A stretch of 63,862 nt of DNA, the filler included, from Reclinomonas americana ATCC 50394 (Eukaryota): assembly GCA_048213135.1 (NCBI GenBank). It is 15 parts of 15 records of this genome, joined end to end, with 100 filler letters (N's around TTAATTAATTAA, not from the genome) between each part and the next. Parts side by side here need not be neighbours in the genome. Positions count along the whole stretch, not along the records: positions 46,098 to 55,062 come from AFZH01022117.1; 14 more parts are not named here. One strand, 5' to 3'. Position numbers and translations under genes: made by a program. How positions within the stretch are numbered: the first letter of the stretch is position 1; the number at the start of each line of letters is the position of its first letter. The notes under the pieces were generated by a model, which searched no databases, had not been told where the DNA came from, and worked only from the letters and a program-made list of their open reading frames with translations. Shown in pieces: positions 43,186 through 52,538 of this stretch.

Positions 43186-45802
43186 ATGAAGCTGGAGGGC
43201 AAGACAATCATTGTGACGGGCGGCGTCTCGGGCCTGGGACTGGCGTGCGCCGAGTACTTTGCGTCGGTGGGCGCCAAGGTGGCGGCGTTCGATTTGAACG
43301 ACGAGGCCGGGAAGACCATGGAGCAGACGCTGGGCGAGAAGAGCGCGATGTATGTGAGGACCAATGTGGCCAACGAGGGTGAGCGCGGAAGGAGGAGAAA
43401 CGGTGGTGGGAGTGACTGTTGACTCATCACGCGCACCAGATTCGGTAAAGGCGGCTGTGGCGGCTGTCGTGGAGCGCTTTGGCGATATTCATGGAGTGAT
43501 CAACTGTGCGGGCATTGCTAGTGCGGAGAGAGTTGCGCGCGTGCGGGAGGGAGGGGAGGGGAGGGGTAAGGGGACTTCCTCTGTCTGCCTCTCTCTGTCT
43601 CTACCTCTGCCTTTGTTTGTGCCTCTTACTGTCTCCCTCTCTGCCTCAGTTTCTGCCTGTCTCTTTCTGTTTCTGCCTTTCGCTTTCTGTTGCTGCCTGT
43701 CTCTTTCTGTTTCTGTCTCTTTCTCTTCTCTGTCTCTCACTCTCTCTACCTCTGCCTCTTTTGTCCCTCTGTTTCTGTCTCTGCCTGTGTTTGTGCCTCT
43801 TACTCAGTCTCTCTCTCCCCATCTGGTCTCTGCCCCTCTGCCTCTGCTTCTGCCTGTCTTTTTCACTGTCTGGCCGCTGTCATTTCTCTATCTCATTCCT
43901 TTCTCTCTCCCTCTCCTCTTCCTCCTCCCCGTATTTACTTTTCTTCTTCTTCCCCGACCCGTTGTCTTCTCGATTTCTCTCCCTTTCTGCTGCTTCTACA
44001 TTACTCCCCTTGCGCGTCGTCTTCGTCCTCCTTCATCGCTTTCCTCTTTCCCCTTTTCCATTCTTCTCCACCTTCTCTTCCGCCTTTTTGATTCTCTAGT
44101 CCTCCATTCCTTTCCTCCCCTCTTTTCTTCTTCTTCCGGCCGTGTCTGATGTTTCGTTGTCGCCGCAGGTGCTCTCTCGCCGCGGTGCGCATCCGCTGCA
44201 GGTTTTCGCCAAGGTAATCGAGGTGAACGTGATTGGCACCTTCAATGTGGCGCGCCTGGTCGCCGAGCGCATGGCGCAGCAGAAGCCGTATGATGATGAT
44301 CGTGAGTGGGAAAGGGAAGTGTGGTCAAAGAGGGAGGGACCGAGAGCTGTAGGACTGGGAAGAAGCGTGATCACGAGGGCGGACAAAAGAGGCGCACAGT
44401 ATGTTGCTCATTGCAATGGCCGAGGGGAAGAGTGGTCAAAGAGGGGGGGCCACCAAGTCGCAGAGTGTGTTGCTAACTTTGAGGACTGGGGAGAAAGGAG
44501 GTCAAGAGTGAGAGACTAAGAGTCGCAGACTGTGTTGCTTAATCTTTGACAAGTTCGAGAAAGGGCCAGTAGAGATGGAGGGCCAGAGAGTCGCAGATTG
44601 TGTTGCTCTCTTTCGCGAATAAGTCGATAGACGGCCAGAAAGTCATTGAGTGTGTTGCCTTCTTTGAGAGTTGAGGGAATGGCATGTTACAAGAATAGTC
44701 GACTTGAAGGCCGGTACTCTCCTTTGAAGAGTGGGAAGGAGCTCGTCCGCCGTGGCGGCGCGCTTCAACGCAGAGTATGTGTCAGTGCATCAATGTAAGA
44801 GTTGATTGACTCACCCTTTCTTCTCTTTGCAGAGGAGCGCGGCTGCATTATCAACGTGGCCTCGGTGGCTGCCTTTGACGGTTCGTGAATGTCATTTCAC
44901 TGTATCCCACGCAGATTGACTCGTCGTTCACAATGCTCTCGATCCATGCAGGCCAGATTGGCCAGGCTGCATACTCCGCCAGCAAGGGCGGTGTCGTGGC
45001 CATGACGCTCCCGAGTTGCGGCATCTCGTACACACCGCTCTCGGCGTTCGCTCACTAACCGCGTACTGCCCCCTCAGTGGCTCGTGAGCTCGGCGCTTTC
45101 AACGGCATTCGCGTCAACACGGTGGCCCCCGGTATCATTGGTGAGCGCGAAGAAAGAGGACAGCACGTGATGGGCGAAGACTGAGAGAGAGAGAGAGAGA
45201 GAGAGAGTAGAAAGAGTGAGCAGCGATCCACGCGGGCGGACCGAACTGCGGTGGCCCTCAGCCGCCTTGCTACGGCCCGAACTGTGGCAGCCCCCAGCCG
45301 CCGTGCTACGCGTGGTGATTGAGTGAGTGACACACATGCATACAAGAGAGAGAGAGAGGAGGGAGAGTGAGCGAGTGTGTGTGTGTGTGTGAGAGAGAGA
45401 GAGTGACAGAGTGAGCAGCGATTCACGCGGGCGCGTGGTGATTCAGTGAGTGACACACCCGCAAGTGAAAGAGACAGTCTTCTTACCTATTCGCAGAGAC
45501 CCCGATGCTGTCGAAGGTTCCAGAAAAGGCGCGCGAGTCCCTGATCAAGCAGGTTTGGTGCCACCGACACGAAGCACATTGCCGAGTGCTGTTCTCATCT
45601 CCCTGTCGTTCGCAGGTCGTCTTCCCGAAGCGCCTGGGTCGCCCTGCCGAGTTCGCTCGCCTCTGCGCACACATCTTCGAGAACAGCTACCTCAATGGCG
45701 AAACCATCCGTCTGGTGCGACTCGGCTGTTGCTTGTAATCCTGTGTGCATAGCTTCTCATCCATCAATACAGGACGGCTCGGTGCGCATGGCGGCCATGT
45801 GA
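43186..45802 (+). CDS. HSD17B10: 3-hydroxyacyl-CoA dehydrogenase type 2 (SDR5C1) orthologue, 9 coding exons
   Basis: [90 protein letters not shown]; all 8 introns restore frame. Confidence 0.93.
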
Positions 45803-46097
45803 GGTGGCCACTACTGCGTGCGGCGGTGGCGCTTGTCCAGTGCGTAGACACTCTCACAATCCACCTCAATAATACACAAGTCGCAAGAGGCGCCGACGGA
45901 ATATTGAAGGGGCATGTGCGGGCAGGAGACGCAGAGAGAGTCGCCATCTGGATTGCTCCCCGCTCTCTCTCGTTGATCGATCGCTCCCGCGCGCTCTNNN
46001 NNNNNNNNNNNNNNNNNNNNNNNNNNNNNNNNNNNNNNNNNTTAATTAATTAANNNNNNNNNNNNNNNNNNNNNNNNNNNNNNNNNNNNNNNNNNNN

Positions 46098-46419: not shown

Positions 46420-46614
46420 GGTGAAAAATGAGAAACACAAATTAGGATAATGCAGAGTGTGTGTGTGGCAAGGGAGAGGCGCAGAGGGAGAAGGAGAGGG
46501 ACTGAGTGGTGTTGCAGCAGCGGAGTGCTTCATAAACAGAGAAAAATGTGTGTGTGCATTGTGGGGTGTGGGGTCTTGCTTTGCATGTGCCGTGGATGAG
46601 GGAGAGAGCAAGTG

Positions 46615-47164
46615 CGACGGCCGACGGTCAGCGCATCGTGAGTGGAGATACTGATGACTCAGTGTGTCGGTGGTCACTTTTTGAGTGGAGCTCAAGTGCG
46701 GCAGTTGGAGGGACACACGAGAGCTATGCTCTCTGTCGCTGTCACTGCCGACGGACAACACGTCGTGAGCGGCACTCGTGACTGCACTGTGCGAGTGTGG
46801 TCGCTGGCGAGTGGTGAGGAAGTGCGACGATAATCCGGAGCTATGGATTGCACAGTGCGAGTGTGGTCGATGGCAACTGGGGAGGAAGTGCGCAGGTTGG
46901 AGGGACGCAATTGATGAAGTGCGTCACAGTCGATCAGAGACCTGGTGACTGTAGGTCATGTTTTGTCCACCCTGTGGCCTTGCTTGGTGGGAGCTGGAGT
47001 ATGCGCGTGTGGCCAGGCAGGCTGTACGGGAGATGCAGCAAAAGCGGGCACGGGTGAGCGTTGAGTCTCAGTGCCTGCCAGAGATGGTGCTCCGGTGCTT
47101 CATTGTGGAGGATGCAGACGTGGTGCTGCACCGTTGCTGCATTAATCCCGCGGTGTGCCTGTGA
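46615..47164 (+). pseudogene. Decayed member of the tandem WD40 array (copy 0)
   Basis: WD40 fragments with a frameshift (~46680), in-frame stops (46831, ~46912) and internal deletions; no MTST start; the family tail PCGLAWWELE...CLPEMVLRCFIVED is retained. Confidence 0.88.
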
Positions 47165-47384
47165 CCTGGTGCGGGAAGATGCAGGATGCAAGCAGTTGTG
47201 ATGGTTCCTTGTTCAGCATGAGCATGAAAGCCAGCGCCTGTGCACTTCGATTGAACCAGCGTCGACTTCATGTCACGAAGGACATCCAAATTCCGACCAA
47301 ATCGCTCTCTTCCTCGCTCTCACGAACGCACAGTTGCCTTGTCTCTCTCCCTCTCTCCCTCTCTCTCTCCCTCTCTCTCATCTC

Positions 47385-48470
47385 ATGACCTCCACCACCC
47401 CTCTCTTCGTCTGCAAGTCTCTGCTCAGACACGAGAGTACAACACGGTCTGTGACCTTCACTTCCGATGGCCAGCACATCATCAGTGGAAGTGATGACAG
47501 CAGAATGAGAGTGTGGTCTGTCGCGAGTGGAGAAGAACTCCGACGATTGGAGGGACACACTGGTCCAGTGCACTCTGTCGTCGTCACACCCGATGGCCAA
47601 CACGCTGTGAGTGGCAGCTGGGACCGCACAGTTCGTGTGTGGTCGCTGACGAGTGGAGAAGAAGTACGTCGGTTGGAGGGGCACACAGCTGCTGTGGAGT
47701 ATGTCACCGTCACTTCCGATGGCGGTCATATCGTCAGCGGCGGTTTGTACTGCACAGTTCGAGTGTGGTCACTGGCAAGTAGTCGAAAGCAAGTTCGTGT
47801 GTTAAAGGGATACGAACGCGGAGTGAACTCGCTCGCCGTCACGAGCGATGGCGAGCGCATTGTGAGTGGGGCAATGGACGAGTTCGTGTGCGTGCGGTCA
47901 CTGGAGAGTGGGGAGGAGGTACGACGCTTGAAGGGGCACACCAATGGCGTTCTGTCAGTCGCCGTCACCGTCGATGGGTTGCACGTGGTGAGTGGCGGCA
48001 TGGACTGCACAGTGCGAGTGTGGTCACTGGCGAGTGGAGAAGAGGTGCACCGACTCGAGGGGCACGCGGATTGGGTGTGGTCGGTGGCCGTCGCTCCCGA
48101 TGGTCGCCACGTTGTGAGTGGCTCCATGGACAAGACAGTGCGGGTGTGGTCGATGGAGAGTGGGGATGAAGTGCGCCGATTGGAGGGGCACACTGCAGGC
48201 GTGTGGTCTGTAGCCGTCTCCCCCGATGGTCAGCATATTGTGAGTGGAGGTCGTGACAGAACGGTGCGGGTTTGGTCGACGCCGTGTGGCCTCGCTCGGG
48301 GGGAACTGGAAACGGCGCGAGCAGCCATGCAGGCTGTGCAGCAGATGCAGCGAGAAGGAGAAGAAGATGACTCGCGATGCCTGCCAGAGATGGTGCTCCG
48401 GTGCTTCATTGTGGAGGATGCGGGCGTGGTGCTGCATCGTTCCTTTGTCGATCCCGCGTTGTGCCTGTGA
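47385..48470 (+). CDS. Intronless 7xWD40 protein with conserved C-terminal tail, array copy 1 (361 aa)
   Basis: ATG MTSTTPLF; seven repeats of EEVRRLEGH..V.SVAVTPDG.HIVSG..D.TVRVWSL.SG type; tail ...CLPEMVLRCFIVEDAG. Confidence 0.92.
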   Translation: MTSTTPLFVCKSLLRHESTTRSVTFTSDGQHIISGSDDSRMRVWSVASGEELRRLEGHTGPVHSVVVTPDGQHAVSGSWDRTVRVWSLTSGEEVRRLEGHTAAVEYVTVTSDGGHIVSGGLYCTVRVWSLASSRKQVRVLKGYERGVNSLAVTSDGERIVSGAMDEFVCVRSLESGEEVRRLKGHTNGVLSVAVTVDGLHVVSGGMDCTVRVWSLASGEEVHRLEGHADWVWSVAVAPDGRHVVSGSMDKTVRVWSMESGDEVRRLEGHTAGVWSVAVSPDGQHIVSGGRDRTVRVWSTPCGLARGELETARAAMQAVQQMQREGEEDDSRCLPEMVLRCFIVEDAGVVLHRSFVDPALCL

Positions 48471-48640
48471 TCCGAGGCGTAGGAAGGACAGTGTGCACAA
48501 TTCAGCTGTGTGCCGCAACTCAGTATCGTTGTTGGGTGCAAGTTGCGCTTGTGATCTGAGGCGTGGAAAGAAACAGAGTGCAGAATAAAGCAGTTGGATT
48601 GGTTCCTTGTCGCATGAATACCAGCGCCTGTTCAGCCAGC

Positions 48641-48680
48641 GCGATCCTCCATTGCCGACTTCATGTCACGAAGGACATCA
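48641..48680 (+). promoter_or_regulatory. Conserved upstream element of WD40 array genes (also ~47261, 49899, 51176, 52429)
   Basis: GCGATCCTCCATTG(T/C)CGACTTCA...AGGACATC precedes each intact copy by ~70-125 nt (only the GTCGACTTCA...GGACATC part before copy 1), followed by a pyrimidine tract and ATGACCTCCAC. Confidence 0.6.
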
Positions 48681-48751
48681 ACACACATTCTGTCGTCTCA
48701 CGCGCACGCCCCTTACTTGCGCCTTCCCTCCTCCTCGTCTCTCTCTTTCCA

Positions 48752-49837
48752 ATGACCTCCACCACCCCTCTCTTCATCCGCAAGACTCTCCTCGGACACA
48801 GTGCGGCAATCAGTGCTGTTGCTGTCACACCCGACGGGCAACACATTGTGAGTGGCGGCACTGACGAGACAACGCGAGTGTGGTCGCTGACGACGAGTGG
48901 CAAAGAGGTGCGCTGCCTGCGCACAACCTCAGTGCGGCGTGTCGCCATCACTCCCGATGCGCAACACATTGTGAGTGGCGGAATGGACAAATCCGTGCGA
49001 GTGTGGTCCCTGGAGAGTGGGAGAGAGGTGCGGCGACTGGAGGGACACACCAGCTGGGTAATGTCTGTCACCGTCACTCCCGACGGGCGTCACATTGTGA
49101 GCGGCGGCATGGACAAGACCGTGCGAGTGTGGTCACGGGCGAGCGGAAAGCAAGTGCGGCTGTTGGAGGGACACAGTGGAGGAGTGAACCGTGTTGTTGT
49201 CACGCCCGATGGGAAGCGCATCGTGAGTGGCGGTGCTGACTGGTCAGTGCGGGTGTGGTCAATGACGAATGGTGCGGAAGAGCTGTGTTTGGAGGGACAC
49301 AGTGATGCAGTGCTGTCTGTTGCCGTCAATGGACAGCATGTTGTGAGCGGCAGTCGTGACGGCACTGTGCGAGTGTGGTCGCTGGCGAGCGGAGAAGAAG
49401 TGCGGCGGTTGGAGGGACACACCACCTATTGGGTGTGGTCGGTGGCCGTCACACCCGACAGTCGCCACATTGTGAGTGGCGTTATGGACTGCACAGTGCG
49501 AGTGTGGTCGATGGAGAGTGGGGATGAAGTGCGCCGATTGGAGGGGCACACTGCAGGAGTGTGGTCTGTAGCGGTCTCCCCCGACGGGCAGCATATTGTG
49601 AGTGGAGGTCGTGACAACATCGTGCGAGTGTGGTCGACGCCGTGTGGCCTCGCTCGGTGGGAGCTGGAGACGGCGCGAGCAGCCATGCAGGCTGTGCAGC
49701 AGATGCAGCATGAAGGAGAAGAGGATGAGGAACGAGACTCGCGATGCCTGCCAGAGATGGTGCTGCGGTGTTTCATCGTGGAGGAGGCAGGAGTGGTGCT
49801 TCATCGTTCCTTTGTCGATCCTGAGTTGCGCCTGTGA
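48752..49837 (+). CDS. Intronless 7xWD40 protein with conserved C-terminal tail, array copy 2 (361 aa)
   Basis: Same start peptide, seven repeats and tail; uninterrupted ORF. Confidence 0.92.
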   Translation: MTSTTPLFIRKTLLGHSAAISAVAVTPDGQHIVSGGTDETTRVWSLTTSGKEVRCLRTTSVRRVAITPDAQHIVSGGMDKSVRVWSLESGREVRRLEGHTSWVMSVTVTPDGRHIVSGGMDKTVRVWSRASGKQVRLLEGHSGGVNRVVVTPDGKRIVSGGADWSVRVWSMTNGAEELCLEGHSDAVLSVAVNGQHVVSGSRDGTVRVWSLASGEEVRRLEGHTTYWVWSVAVTPDSRHIVSGVMDCTVRVWSMESGDEVRRLEGHTAGVWSVAVSPDGQHIVSGGRDNIVRVWSTPCGLARWELETARAAMQAVQQMQHEGEEDEERDSRCLPEMVLRCFIVEEAGVVLHRSFVDPELRL

Positions 49838-50020
49838 GTTGTGTCATGAAAGTGTACAATGAAAACAGCTGAGGGAATGGGAGAAGGAGAAAGACAGCGC
49901 GATCCTCCATTGTCGACTTCAGCGTCGCGTGTCACAAAGGACATCAAACGCATTCACACACACGTCTCTCGCGCTTGCACACACTCCTGTTCTCTCTCTT
50001 CTTGTTCTCTTTCTCTTCCG

Positions 50021-51124
50021 ATGACCTCCACGGCCCCTGTCTTTGTCGGCAAGACTCTCCGTCGTCATCACGTCGGCGAGATGTACGCCACCGCCATCAC
50101 TCCCGACGACAAGTACATGTGCTGTTGTCACATCACTGCGATACGAGTGTGTTGCCTTGCCAGCGGCCGTGAGGTTCGCCTTATTGAAGGACACACCAGT
50201 TGGGTGTGGTCGATAGCCATTACTCCCGATGGTCGACACGTGGTGAGTGGGAGCAGCGACAAGACGGTGCGAGTGTGGTCGCTGGAGAGTGGAGAGGAAG
50301 TGCGACGACTGGAGGCGCACACCGGCACCGTCATGTCGGTCGCCGTCACCCCCGATGGTCGTCACATCGTCAGCAGTGGCACGGACAAGACGGTGCGAGT
50401 GTGGTCACTGGCGAGAGGCGAAGGAGTGAGACGACTGGAGGGACACACTGGGTGGATTCCTTCTGTGGCTGTCACGCCGGATGGGCTTCACGTTGTGAGT
50501 GGCAGTATGGACTGGACTGTGCGAGTGTGGTCACTGGCGAGTGGCGAGGAGGTGCGGCGATTGGAAGGTCACCACGCGTGTCCAGTCACCTGTGTCGCGG
50601 TCACTCCCGACGGCAAGCACGTTGTGAGTGGCAGCACGGATACGACACTGTGTGTGTGGCCTCTGGCGGCTGATGCGCATGAGGAGGTGCGGCGATTGGA
50701 GGGACACGCCGACTGGGTGCTCTCTGTGGTCGTGACTGGCGATGGACTGCACGTGGTGAGTGGGAGCAAGGATTTGACGATTCGTGTGTGGTCTCTTGCG
50801 AGTGGCGAGGAGGTGCGACGGCTGGTCGAGGGTCATACTTCTTCGGTGATGCACGTCTCTGTTGCGCTCGACGGGCAGCACATTGTGAGTGGAGGTAGTG
50901 ACGGGACGATGCGTGTCTGGTCGACAACGTGTGGCCTCGCTCGGTGGGAGCTGGAGACGGCGCGAGCGGCCATGCAGGCTGTGCAGCAGATGCAGCGAGA
51001 AGGAGAAGAGGATGAGGAACGAGACTCGCGTTGCCTGCCAGAGATGGTGCTGCGGTGTTTCATCGTGGAGGAAGCAGGAGTGGTGCTTCATCGTTGCTGC
51101 GTGGATCCCGAGTTGCGCCTGTGA
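50021..51124 (+). CDS. Intronless 7xWD40 protein with conserved C-terminal tail, array copy 3 (367 aa)
   Basis: MTSTAPVF start; divergent first blade; small in-frame insertions; same tail. Confidence 0.92.
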   Translation: MTSTAPVFVGKTLRRHHVGEMYATAITPDDKYMCCCHITAIRVCCLASGREVRLIEGHTSWVWSIAITPDGRHVVSGSSDKTVRVWSLESGEEVRRLEAHTGTVMSVAVTPDGRHIVSSGTDKTVRVWSLARGEGVRRLEGHTGWIPSVAVTPDGLHVVSGSMDWTVRVWSLASGEEVRRLEGHHACPVTCVAVTPDGKHVVSGSTDTTLCVWPLAADAHEEVRRLEGHADWVLSVVVTGDGLHVVSGSKDLTIRVWSLASGEEVRRLVEGHTSSVMHVSVALDGQHIVSGGSDGTMRVWSTTCGLARWELETARAAMQAVQQMQREGEEDEERDSRCLPEMVLRCFIVEEAGVVLHRCCVDPELRL

Positions 51125-51282
51125 GCTGTGGCATGAGAATAGATAATAAAGGCAAGTGAGTAGGAGAAAGACATTGCGATCCTCCATTGTCGACTTCAGC
51201 GTCGCCTGGCGGGCAGGACATCAAACACTCGTCTTCGTCCTCGTCTCTCTCACGCACTCACTTGCCTGCTCCCTCTATTCCA

Positions 51283-52377
51283 ATGACCTCCACTACAGCC
51301 CCTCTCTTCATCTGCAAGACTCTTCTCGGAAACGCAGATGCTGTGCGTTCTGTCGCCATCACTCCCGATGGCCAACACATCATCAGCGGTGGTGATGACA
51401 GGAGAGTGCGAGTGAGGTCCCTCGCGAGTGGAGAAGAAGTACGACGACTGGAGGGACACACTGGCTGGGTGATGGCAGTGGCCGTCACTCCCGATGGTCA
51501 TCACATCATCAGTGGCAACTATGACAGCACAATTCGTGTGTGGTCGCTGGCGAGCGGAGAACAAGTGCGGCAGTTGGAGGGACACACCGCTGCGGTGCAG
51601 AGTGTCGCCGTCACTCCCAATGGTGAGCACATTGTTAGTGGCAGCTGGGACTACACGGTGCGAGTGTGGTCACTGGCGACTGGCAACGAAGTCCTGCGAT
51701 TGGAGGGGCACTTCAATTGGGTGACGTCAGTCGCTGTTACGCCCAATGGTCAGCACATCGTGAGTGGGAGTCAAGACAGTACGGTGCGTGTATGGTCACT
51801 TGCGAGTGGTGCGGAAGAGCTGCGATTGGACACAGGCAGTTGGTATGTGAGGTCAGTCGCCGTCACTCCCGACGGTCGGCACATTGTGGGCGGTAGTCAA
51901 GACAACAGAGTGCGAGTGTTGTCATTGGCGAGTGGAGAAAAGGTGCGGCGGTTGGAGGGACACACCGATTGGGTGTGGTCGGTGGCCGTCACTCACGATG
52001 GTCAGCACGTGGTCAGCGGCGGTACGGACTTCACAGTGCGAGTGTGGTCGATGGAGAGTGGGGAGGAGGTGCAGCGATTAGAGGGGCACACTCAGGGAGT
52101 GCGATCTGTTGCCGTCTCCCCCGATGGTCAGCACGTGGTGAGCGGTGGTCGTGACGGGACGATGCGTGTGTGGTCCACGCCGTGTGGCCTCGCTCGCTGG
52201 GAACTGAAGACGGCGCGAGCAGCGATGCAGGATGTGCAGGAGATGCAGCGAGAAGGAGAAGAGGATGAGGAACGAGACTCGCGATGCCTGCCAGAGATGG
52301 TGCTGCGGTGTTTCATCGTGGAGGAGGCAGGAGTGGTACTGCATCGTTGCTGCGTGGATCCCTCGTTGCGCCTGTGA
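51283..52377 (+). CDS. Intronless 7xWD40 protein with conserved C-terminal tail, array copy 4 (364 aa)
   Basis: MTSTTAPLF start; seven repeats; same tail; AATAAA just downstream (~52398). Confidence 0.92.
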   Translation: MTSTTAPLFICKTLLGNADAVRSVAITPDGQHIISGGDDRRVRVRSLASGEEVRRLEGHTGWVMAVAVTPDGHHIISGNYDSTIRVWSLASGEQVRQLEGHTAAVQSVAVTPNGEHIVSGSWDYTVRVWSLATGNEVLRLEGHFNWVTSVAVTPNGQHIVSGSQDSTVRVWSLASGAEELRLDTGSWYVRSVAVTPDGRHIVGGSQDNRVRVLSLASGEKVRRLEGHTDWVWSVAVTHDGQHVVSGGTDFTVRVWSMESGEEVQRLEGHTQGVRSVAVSPDGQHVVSGGRDGTMRVWSTPCGLARWELKTARAAMQDVQEMQREGEEDEERDSRCLPEMVLRCFIVEEAGVVLHRCCVDPSLRL

Positions 52378-52538
52378 GTTGTGTCACGAGAGTAGACAAT
52401 AAAGGCAAGTGAGTAGGAGAAAGACAGCGCGATCCTCCATTGTCGACTTCAGTGTCGCCTGGCGGGCAGGACATCAAACACTCTCAGTCTTCGTCCTCGT
52501 CTCTCTCACGCACTCACTTACCTGCTCTCTCTATTCCA

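What the first reader, a model, noticed from the sequence alone, without database searches (positions are those of the whole stretch)
48287..48470. Nearly invariant C-terminal tail resembles a C-terminal F-box (PRANC-like) or Cul2-box
Seen: STPCGLARWELETARAAMQAVQQMQ-acidic linker-RCLPEMVLRCFIVEEAGVVLHR. The core CLPEMVLRCFIVE is unchanged in all six copies including the pseudogene, while the WD40 blades diverge. Established: LPxxhLxxI starts F-box helix 1, truncated C-terminal F-boxes occur in poxvirus ankyrin-PRANC proteins, and hPxxhxxxh is the Cul2 box. Canonical FBXW proteins have the F-box N-terminal to the WD40s. Inference: inverted-architecture cullin-RING substrate adaptors that route variably recognised targets to the proteasome. 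I see no clear BC-box, so Skp1 binding seems more likely.
Basis: partly seen in the sequence, partly recalled or inferred. Interest (0 to 1): 0.78.

Follow-up and report, generated by a model that had tools for sequence, protein, structure and literature searches.

The report
Conserved tail on protist WD40 array
Five neighbouring genes and one broken copy in a protist-like genome encode ring-shaped WD40 proteins with variable binding faces that all end in the same short tail, which is real and under selection but matches no known protein module, so its proposed role in protein degradation remains untested.

Summary
Six head-to-tail copies (five intact 7-blade WD40 genes and one decayed remnant) all encode CLPEMVLRCFIVE near the C-terminus. 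The quoted peptide belongs to copies 2-4, not to the copy at the given coordinates.

Conservation is not only recency:
- The 3' flanks are about half different in 14 of 15 copy pairs.
- All 4 variable bases in the 39-nt core are synonymous.
- The core recurs 12/15 identical on a propeller only 23% identical overall, from another source, and in a Reclinomonas americana EST protein.
- Part of the tail's uniformity does come from unequal crossing-over inside the array.

The F-box/PRANC/Cul2-box reading found no support beyond a motif. Pfam gave 0 families at E<=10. A tail profile against all PDB sequences gave no F-box, SOCS or VHL chain. There is no BC box, LPxP or WDxR. AlphaFold confidence was low. 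The LPxxhhxxh match is uncommon by chance (1 in 65,166 residues), and one-helix F-boxes are known, so the idea stays open.

Best reading: a lineage-restricted, undescribed docking tail that couples variable propellers to one common partner. Binding to Skp1, Elongin or DDB1, and self-association, could not be tested.

The parts
46611..47165 (+). Decayed copy (pseudogene): about 2.5 WD40 blades in three frames with stops and an internal deletion, then an open tail frame 46955-47165
47385..48470 (+). Copy 1, 361 aa, 7-blade WD40 plus tail (tail about 48279-48470; core 48378-48416)
48752..49837 (+). Copy 2, 361 aa, 7-blade WD40 plus tail (tail 49637-49837; core 49745-49783); the copy that was folded
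50021..51124 (+). Copy 3, 367 aa, WD40 plus tail (tail 50924-51124; core 51032-51070); first blade degenerate
51283..52377 (+). Copy 4, 364 aa, WD40 plus tail (tail 52177-52377; core 52285-52323); mosaic of a copy-5-like 5' part and a copy-3-like tail
52539..53633 (+). Copy 5, 364 aa, WD40 plus tail (tail 53433-53633; core 53541-53579); the most divergent intact tail
47072..47110 (+). Core motif in the pseudogene, identical in DNA to copy 1 over these 39 nt, while the helix and linker just upstream differ at 30 of 97 sites

Best explanation
The array encodes a small family of 7-bladed WD40 propellers. Eight loop positions per 42-residue repeat vary freely on an otherwise constant scaffold. These positions are inferred, not shown, to lie on the ligand face.

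Each propeller is fused to a constant C-terminal extension of about 65 residues:
- an amphipathic helix, roughly residues 300-322;
- an acidic linker;
- an invariant, almost wholly hydrophobic, two-cysteine segment, RCLPEM(V/I)LRCF(I/L)VE(E/D);
- about 16 more residues.

I read the extension as a lineage-restricted docking module. It does not fold confidently on its own or onto its own propeller, and the invariant segment would be buried in a partner. On this reading, differently specific propellers are tied to one common partner or machine.

Shown: the architecture, the selection on the core, its presence on a second, very different propeller, and the absence of any known-domain signal.

Inferred: that it docks a partner. 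Which partner is unknown. A Skp1-type cullin-ligase adaptor is the leading specific candidate.
For: Architecture:
- 6-7 WD40 stretches per protein (E 1e-63 to 1e-76).
- The AlphaFold model has 28 strands forming 7 blades, mostly at pLDDT above 90.

Selection on the core:
- 4 of 4 variable bases in the 39-nt core are synonymous across six copies (P about 3e-3 under uniform neutrality).
- Tail dN/dS is 0.13-0.52 over 10 pairs.
- Sequence just past the stop codon differs at 27-44 of 61-65 sites in 14 of 15 pairs.
- Intergenic identity is 0.02-0.60 against 0.77-0.92 in the tail.

Independence from this array:
- A 5-sequence tail profile against 1.84 billion representatives found P0126 (E 1.3e-26) and P0129 (E 8.6e-4).
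- P0126 is an EST-derived protein of Reclinomonas americana, 70% identical to copy 4 over 116 aa.
- P0129 is colinear with copy 4 at 23% identity over 354 columns, yet keeps 12 of 15 core residues, with 3 conservative changes.

Partner-dependent behaviour:
- Residues 322-361 have pLDDT below 50 in the full-length model.
- The tail alone gives two helices at mean pLDDT 65 and pTM 0.42.
- Helix 1 is amphipathic (moment 0.48). The core is hydrophobic with little moment (0.26 and 0.08).

Variable face:
- In 35 aligned blades the highest entropy falls at 8 positions.
- pN/pS there is 0.61-1.07 against 0.29-0.36 on the scaffold. The columns were chosen after seeing the variability, so part of this contrast is circular.
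Against: - No partner was identified, and no binding or self-association test could be run.
- Low AlphaFold confidence may only reflect the shallow alignment (5 and 7 sequences).
- Synonymous divergence is lower in the tail (dS 0.18-0.47) than in the propeller (0.31-1.26).
- The array is mosaic. Copy 4 is 0.82-0.97 identical to copy 5 from -149 to about +600 of the gene, but 0.91-0.97 identical to copy 3 from about +900 into the 3' flank. Part of the tail's uniformity among copies 2-4 is therefore shared recent ancestry through unequal crossing-over, not selection.
- Tail dN/dS is not uniformly lower than that of the propeller. Pairs with copy 5 reach 0.35-0.52.
- Only three sources carry the tail, so the selection argument rests on few independent lineages.
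Confidence: 0.5

Rival explanations
1. Minimal C-terminal F-box. LPEMVLRCFIVE forms the equivalent of F-box helix 1, possibly with a short helix 2 after the EAG turn. It docks Skp1, making these proteins SCF substrate receptors with the box behind the WD40 domain instead of in front.
For: - All 7 tails fit LPxx[LIVM][LIVM]xx[LIVMF]. The same pattern occurs once in 65,166 residues of 120 unrelated WD40 proteins.
- Poxviral F-boxes are C-terminal and reduced to two helices. CP77's is effectively helix 1 alone and still binds Skp1, and most Skp1 contacts come from helix 1 and the loop before it (PMC4353913, passages).
- The FBXW7 propeller is among the closest solved sequences to the WD40 part (E 1.1e-63). 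This is generic WD40 likeness.
Against: - Pfam gave 0 families at E<=10 for 3 tails, and no F-box or PRANC family for P0126 or P0129.
- No F-box chain appears among the 7 PDB hits at E<=10 with the tail profile.
- AlphaFold gives one long low-confidence helix (38-60), not a helix-turn-helix.
- By eye, residues after the core show no likeness to what I recall of F-box helices 2 and 3.
- The motif was picked after the fact.
Confidence: 0.17
2. Self-association module. The helix-linker-helix tail pairs with the tail of another copy, for example as a four-helix bundle or through its two invariant cysteines. The result would be homo- or hetero-oligomers of differently specific propellers.
For: - The tail alone is predicted as a two-helix hairpin (H7-26, H38-60).
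- Helix 1 is amphipathic, and the core is hydrophobic on all sides.
- Two cysteines are invariant in all 7 aligned tails.
- Several paralogues with the same tail are encoded side by side.
Against: - Model confidence is low (mean pLDDT 65, pTM 0.42).
- Structural matches are only generic helical hairpins, with Z at most 6.2, below the tool's stated noise level for helical models.
- No direct test was run.
Confidence: 0.13
3. Docking helix for another cullin adaptor: an H-box-like helix for DDB1 (a DCAF-type CUL4 receptor), or a degenerate Elongin C or Cul2-type box.
For: - DCAF receptors are WD40 propellers that anchor to DDB1 through a short, poorly conserved alpha-helical H-box (PMC3928422, passages).
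- The tail fits the Cul2-box pattern hPxxhxxxh.
Against: - No WDxR motif occurs in any of the 6 proteins checked.
- In the DCAF described, the H-box lies N-terminal to the propeller.
- No BC box occurs in any of the 7 tails, although that pattern is common by chance (37 of 120 proteins).
- The Cul2-box pattern occurs in 26 of 120 unrelated proteins.
- The sequence reads LPEM, not the LP-hydrophobic-P that Cul5 requires (PMC4812663, passages).
- Pfam finds no SOCS-box family.
Confidence: 0.07
4. No special function. The tail looks invariant because unequal crossing-over and gene conversion keep homogenising the 3' ends of the array members.
For: - Tail dS is 0.18-0.47 against 0.31-1.26 in the propeller.
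- Copy 4 is a mosaic, and the two adjacent spacers are near-identical: 7 of 63 differences between the 3' flanks of copies 3 and 4.
- In the pseudogene the core differs from copy 1 at 4 of 61 sites, against 30 of 97 in the helix and linker just upstream (Fisher P 2.6e-4). This could be a conversion patch.
Against: - The same core is kept 12 of 15 in P0129, whose propeller is 23% identical and which comes from another source. It is also kept in the R. americana EST protein.
- All 4 core substitutions are synonymous.
- Conservation stops abruptly at the stop codon in 14 of 15 pairs.
Confidence: 0.05

Closest known systems
WSB1/WSB2 (WD40 repeat and SOCS box proteins, Cul5 receptors)
   Same: A WD40 domain followed by a short C-terminal adaptor box of about 40 residues that links a recognition domain to a common ligase scaffold (PMC4812663, passages).
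   Different: No BC box in any of the 7 tails. The sequence reads LPEM, not LP-hydrophobic-P. No Pfam SOCS-box hit. The tail has a helix and acidic linker that, as far as I recall, the SOCS box lacks.
Poxviral and Orientia ankyrin proteins with a C-terminal truncated F-box (PRANC)
   Same: C-terminal position, short length, and an LP-plus-hydrophobic-helix start. There is precedent that helix 1 alone can bind Skp1 (PMC4353913, passages).
   Different: The recognition domain is WD40, not ankyrin. No PRANC or F-box profile match at E<=10. This is a cellular protist family, not a viral or bacterial effector.
FBXW proteins (FBXW7, beta-TrCP, Cdc4)
   Same: WD40 propeller receptors. The FBXW7 propeller is among the closest solved sequences to the WD40 part (E 1.1e-63).
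   Different: Here nothing precedes the propeller except about 8 residues that form the closing strand.
High-internal-conservation WD40 sensor domains of fungal NLRs (HET-E, HET-D, NWD)
   Same: Very similar 42-residue repeats with a few hypervariable positions. Repeat and gene shuffling by unequal crossing-over (PMC12222747, passages).
   Different: Internal repeat identity is 0.61-0.65 here against over 80% in the fungal genes. The ORF has no NACHT or effector domain. The constant part is a C-terminal tail instead.
DCAF receptors of CUL4-DDB1 with an H-box helix
   Same: A WD40 receptor anchored by one short, weakly conserved helix (PMC3928422, passages).
   Different: No WDxR motifs in any of the 6 proteins checked. 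The helix lies on the other side of the propeller.

Membership tests
WD40 seven-blade beta-propeller | Seven WD40 repeats forming a closed propeller | tested here: met
   Pfam WD40 at E 1e-63 to 1e-76 with 6-7 stretches in all 5 proteins. The AlphaFold model has 28 strands, mostly at pLDDT above 90, and the N-terminal strand closes the ring.
F-box (Pfam F-box, F-box-like) | Significant match to an F-box profile | tested here: not met
   0 Pfam families at E<=10 for 3 tails. None for P0126 or P0129. No F-box chain among the 7 PDB hits at E<=10 with the tail profile. HMMER filters hide very weak matches.
F-box (Pfam F-box, F-box-like) | About 40-50 residues forming three helices | tested here: not met
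   Only 29 residues (24 in P0129) run from LP to the C-terminus. AlphaFold gives one helix, 38-60, at low confidence.
F-box (Pfam F-box, F-box-like) | LP followed by a hydrophobic helix 1 | tested here: met
   LPEM[VI]LRCF in 7 of 7 tails. The pattern occurs once in 65,166 background residues.
F-box (Pfam F-box, F-box-like) | Binds Skp1 | not testable with these tools
No genome is held for the window.
PRANC (truncated C-terminal F-box) | C-terminal two-helix F-box remnant behind ankyrin repeats, with a PRANC profile match | tested here: not met
   C-terminal position is met. The upstream domain is WD40, not ankyrin. No PRANC family at E<=10.
SOCS box / VHL box | BC box (pattern recalled: [STP]-L-x3-[CSA]-x3-hydrophobic) that binds Elongin C | tested here: not met
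   0 of 7 tails carry the pattern. 37 of 120 unrelated proteins do.
SOCS box / VHL box | Cul5 box with LP-hydrophobic-P, or a Cul2 box downstream of a BC box | tested here: not met
   The sequence is LPEM. The Cul5 requirement is taken from PMC4812663. The Cul2-box pattern fits but occurs in 26 of 120 unrelated proteins and has no BC box before it.
DCAF (DDB1-CUL4 receptor) | WDxR motifs and an H-box helix N-terminal to the propeller | tested here: not met
   No WDxR in any of 6 proteins. The only candidate helix is C-terminal. Features are taken from PMC3928422.
HIC WD40 sensor of NLR type | Repeats over 80% identical within a gene, with hypervariable sites | tested here: inconclusive
   Hypervariable sites on a constant scaffold are present. 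Internal identity is 0.61-0.65.
HIC WD40 sensor of NLR type | A NACHT/NB-ARC domain in the same protein | tested here: not met
   Pfam shows only WD40 or propeller families among the 25 best listed for each protein (52-68 families matched per protein), and the ORFs start about 8 residues before blade 1.

The most novel reading that the evidence does not exclude
A deep-branching protist lineage (jakobid-like) has built a repertoire of variable-face WD40 receptors that all plug into one machine through a previously undescribed C-terminal adaptor box. This could be a one-helix F-box that arose or survived independently of canonical FBXW proteins, or an entirely new box for an unknown effector. 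It would resemble an innate-recognition repertoire in which the constant part is a tail rather than a NOD domain.
Probability: 0.15. Interest if true: 0.7.

Novelty: new variant of a known kind. Interest (0 to 1): 0.42.

Why it matters
Short adaptor boxes (F-box, SOCS box, H-box) are how eukaryotes couple many recognition domains to a few ubiquitin-ligase scaffolds. They have mostly been defined in animals, fungi, plants and their pathogens.

A selected, unclassifiable box behind variable WD40 propellers, in a lineage related to Reclinomonas, would be one of two things. It could extend the known range of minimal F-box-like docking helices, or it could point to a partner system not yet described.

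It is also a compact, testable case. A 66-residue peptide with an obvious LP and two-cysteine mutant is enough for a pull-down.

If it turns out to be only a family-specific structural appendage, the finding is of local interest.

Tried and rejected
- Sequence search with the tail of copy 2 among proteins of 198-632 aa: 25 candidates, none at E<=1.
- Full-length copy 2: 2037 proteins at E<=1e-20 among 8000 scored. The 120 listed are generic WD40 proteins, at most 56% identical and at most 89% query coverage. None is an evident orthologue.
- Tail alignment A4 against longer proteins: only P0129, which is itself a row of A4, so nothing new.
- Tail alignment against metagenome contigs: one locus, L001, which is an out-of-frame chance match inside a bacterial P-type ATPase gene.
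- Tail alignment against viral contigs: 208 pattern matches, none confirmed. Against prokaryote genomes: 28 pattern matches, none confirmed.
- ESM Atlas: no usable hit for the copy-2 tail. For the P0129 tail the best score was 0.76, below the tool's chance level.
- Foldseek of the tail model against PDB: 0 matches at E<=0.001, best E 5.1.
- VIA-align against 48,161 chains: only generic helical hairpins, Z at most 6.2. No F-box, SOCS or VHL entry appears among the 50 rows shown, which excludes nothing.
- P0127 and P0128 (E 2.3e-6 and 3.5e-4) are short tandem-repeat proteins. Each matches half of the tail through 3-4 copies of one repeat. I treat them as probable chance, unresolved.
- Sequencing runs: none was listed, and no RNA holder is listed.
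- Skp1, Elongin or DDB1 complex prediction: not attempted, because no such eukaryotic sequence was obtainable.
- Zinc-site idea: only two cysteines are invariant, and the His and later Cys are not. Dropped.
- PTS1 or CaaX-type C-terminal signals: the termini read LRL, LCL, LRI, MYL and LWW, which fit neither as I recall those signals. Dropped.
- One search used wrong repeat offsets and is superseded.
- Earlier-findings look-ups gave nothing on this genome or sequence. The word search returned only unrelated bacterial propeller arrays.

Full report
WHAT IS THERE

Between 46.6 and 53.6 kb the + strand carries a head-to-tail array. It holds one decayed remnant (46611-47165) and five uninterrupted ORFs:
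- 47385-48470
- 48752-49837
- 50021-51124
- 51283-52377
- 52539-53633

The ORFs are 361-367 aa and are separated by spacers of 158-281 nt. I chose the start codons because MTST(T/A) and the following residues are shared by all five copies, while the in-frame sequence upstream is not. That choice is inference.

Each protein gives 6-7 Pfam WD40 stretches (E 1e-63 to 1e-76). An AlphaFold model of copy 2 has 28 strands, that is seven blades closed by the N-terminal strand, mostly at pLDDT above 90.

The remnant keeps about 2.5 blades spread over three reading frames, with stops and an internal deletion. It then has an open frame for the whole tail. An assembly gap (runs of N around a TTAATTAATTAA linker, 45939-46097) lies just upstream, so the true start of the array is unknown.

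THE OBSERVATION

The 39 nt that encode CLPEMVLRCFIVE occur six times, with none expected in 100 shuffles. All six translate identically. A profile of the 66-residue tail finds these six places and nothing else in the six-frame translation of the window.

Tail identity to copy 2 is 92, 94, 89 and 77%. Whole-protein identity to copy 1 is 73, 65, 70 and 67%.

Copy 1 has G for W, D for E and a shorter linker.

IS THE CONSERVATION MORE THAN RECENT DUPLICATION?

Mostly yes, partly no.

For selection:
- Identity falls from 0.77-0.92 in the tail to 0.02-0.60 in the spacers.
- The first 60-odd bases after the stop differ at 27-44 of 61-65 sites in 14 of 15 pairs. The exception is copies 3 and 4, at 7 of 63.
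- The four variable bases of the core are all synonymous.
- Tail dN/dS is 0.13-0.52.

For shared recent ancestry:
- Tail dS (0.18-0.47) is lower than propeller dS (0.31-1.26).
- The array is mosaic. Copy 4 resembles copy 5 (0.82-0.97) from 149 nt upstream to about +600. It resembles copy 3 (0.91-0.97) from about +900 through the 3' flank.

So one segment (tail, spacer and the first two thirds of the next gene) was duplicated by an unequal exchange with breakpoints inside the repeats. Copies 2-4 therefore share a younger tail.

In the remnant the core differs from copy 1 at 4 of 61 sites, against 30 of 97 just upstream (P 2.6e-4). This is either a conversion patch, or a diverged paralogue that kept its core until it was recently inactivated.

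RELATIVES ELSEWHERE

These decide the point. A tail profile run against 1.84 billion representative proteins gave four hits at E<=0.001. Two are informative.

- P0126 (116 aa, E 1.3e-26) is an EST-derived protein of the jakobid Reclinomonas americana in EukProt. It consists of the last blade plus the tail and is 70% identical to copy 4. A family member is therefore transcribed, and the window most likely comes from a jakobid or a close relative. That inference rests on this single named relative.
- P0129 (381 aa, from an unnamed assembled contig) is a colinear propeller-plus-tail protein, only 23% identical to copy 4 over 354 columns. Its Pfam propeller hits are weak. Yet it reads RCLPEMILRCFLVED where the array reads RCLPEMVLRCFIVEE, that is 12 of 15 identical and 3 conservative changes. 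The helix and the extreme C-terminus are not conserved there.

The selected unit is therefore the acidic linker end plus the 15-residue core. Further searches added nothing.

IS IT AN F-BOX, PRANC, SOCS, VHL OR CUL2 BOX?

Profile tests are negative.
- Pfam gave 0 families at E<=10 for three tails, and no such family for P0126 or P0129.
- The seven-sequence profile against all 177,635 distinct PDB sequences gave seven hits at E 1.2-7.8 (Sec24D, eL34, a designed protein). No F-box, SOCS-box or VHL chain was among them.
- ESM Atlas gave nothing usable.

Structure prediction:
- In the full-length model the helix 302-322 has pLDDT 50-60, and residues 322-361 are below 50.
- The tail alone gives two helices (7-26 and 38-60) at mean pLDDT 65 and pTM 0.42.
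- Fold searches return only generic helical hairpins.

Motif level:
- LPEM[VI]LRCF fits an F-box helix-1-like pattern in 7 of 7 tails. That pattern is rare in 120 unrelated WD40 proteins (1 in 65,166 residues).
- The Cul2-box pattern is common (26 of 120 proteins).
- The BC-box pattern, common by chance (37 of 120), is absent from all tails.
- No protein has WDxR.
- Only 29 residues (24 in P0129) run from LP to the C-terminus, too few for a three-helix F-box.

The literature shows that C-terminal F-boxes cut to two helices, and in CP77 effectively to one, still bind Skp1 (PMC4353913, passages). The negative profile result therefore does not close the question.

WD40 followed by a C-terminal adaptor box is itself a known layout, the WSB proteins (PMC4812663, passages). 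A single weakly conserved helix anchors DCAF propellers to DDB1 (PMC3928422, passages).

THE PROPELLERS

The 35 blades align to one 42-residue consensus. Entropy is high at eight positions: three after GH, one after the next V, one in DGxH and three around SGxxDx.
- Blades within a protein are 0.61-0.65 identical.
- At the eight positions pN/pS is 0.61-1.07, against 0.29-0.36 elsewhere.

The columns were chosen after seeing the data, so this shows relaxed or diversifying change, not proven positive selection.

The pattern resembles the high-internal-conservation WD40 sensors of fungal NLRs (PMC12222747, passages). Here, though, repeat identity is lower and the ORF has no NOD domain.

READING

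The best-supported account is a constant docking tail on variable propellers.
- The core is too hydrophobic on all sides to be a surface feature.
- It is not predicted to pack on its own propeller.
- It is kept across very different propellers.

I put 0.5 on 'docks a common partner'. Within that I put about 0.17 on Skp1 and 0.07 on another cullin adaptor. Separately, I put 0.13 on self-association and 0.05 on a homogenisation by-product.

No binding test could be run. No eukaryotic adaptor sequence was available, and the one complex job (tail with tail) never left the queue.

I found no description of this tail. The searches were (Reclinomonas, nuclear genome, WD40; jakobid, WD40, F-box, gene family expansion), listings only. 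These cover open-access text only.

VERDICT

This is a real, selected, lineage-restricted C-terminal module of unknown partner on a mosaic WD40 array. The cullin-adaptor idea is a reasonable but unsupported lead.

Noticed in passing
window 363-5410: A P-loop segment with weak NACHT and AAA hits (E 0.004 and 0.001) is followed downstream by a 481-aa ORF. That ORF has a pentapeptide-like start and 10 WD40 stretches. It may be one split NLR-like gene, about 40 kb from the array.
   Followed up: partly
window 45939-46097 and about 42650: Runs of N surround a TTAATTAATTAA linker, which marks assembly joints. The one at 45.9 kb lies directly upstream of the pseudogene, so the array may be longer than seen.
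   Followed up: no
window 48643-48682 and the matching places before copies 1, 3, 4 and 5 (alignment A6): A conserved non-coding element (GATCCTCCATTG.CGACTTCA ... AGGACATCAA) lies about 70-135 nt before each start codon, followed by a CT-rich tract. An ATG inside it is present only before copies 1 and 2, so it is not a conserved upstream ORF. It may be a promoter or 5' UTR signal.
   Followed up: partly
window 50900-52900: Mosaic structure: tail of copy 3, spacer and the 5' two thirds of copy 4 match tail of copy 4, spacer and the 5' two thirds of copy 5. This indicates a recent unequal crossing-over with breakpoints inside the WD40 repeats.
   Followed up: yes
window 53650-54640: About 2.5 tandem copies of a roughly 420-nt unit lie directly after the last array gene. 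Two copies are 98% identical over a 136-nt segment. GT/GA microsatellites follow.
   Followed up: no
window 43364-44519: A short-chain dehydrogenase gene is split by a CT-rich, intron-like insert of about 570 nt. The genome therefore has introns, while the WD40 array genes are uninterrupted.
   Followed up: partly
P0127 and P0128: Two short metagenome proteins are built of tandem repeats. Each resembles one half of the tail..TLRCSIVEPTGVIFL.. four times, and ..KAAMNDVQEMQ.. three times. This is probably chance inflated by repetition, but it is unexplained.
   Followed up: partly
window 47268-51187, minus strand: Long antisense ORFs (up to 218 aa) run across the WD40 genes and their tails. I take them to be by-products of the repetitive GC-rich coding sequence and did not test this.
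   Followed up: no
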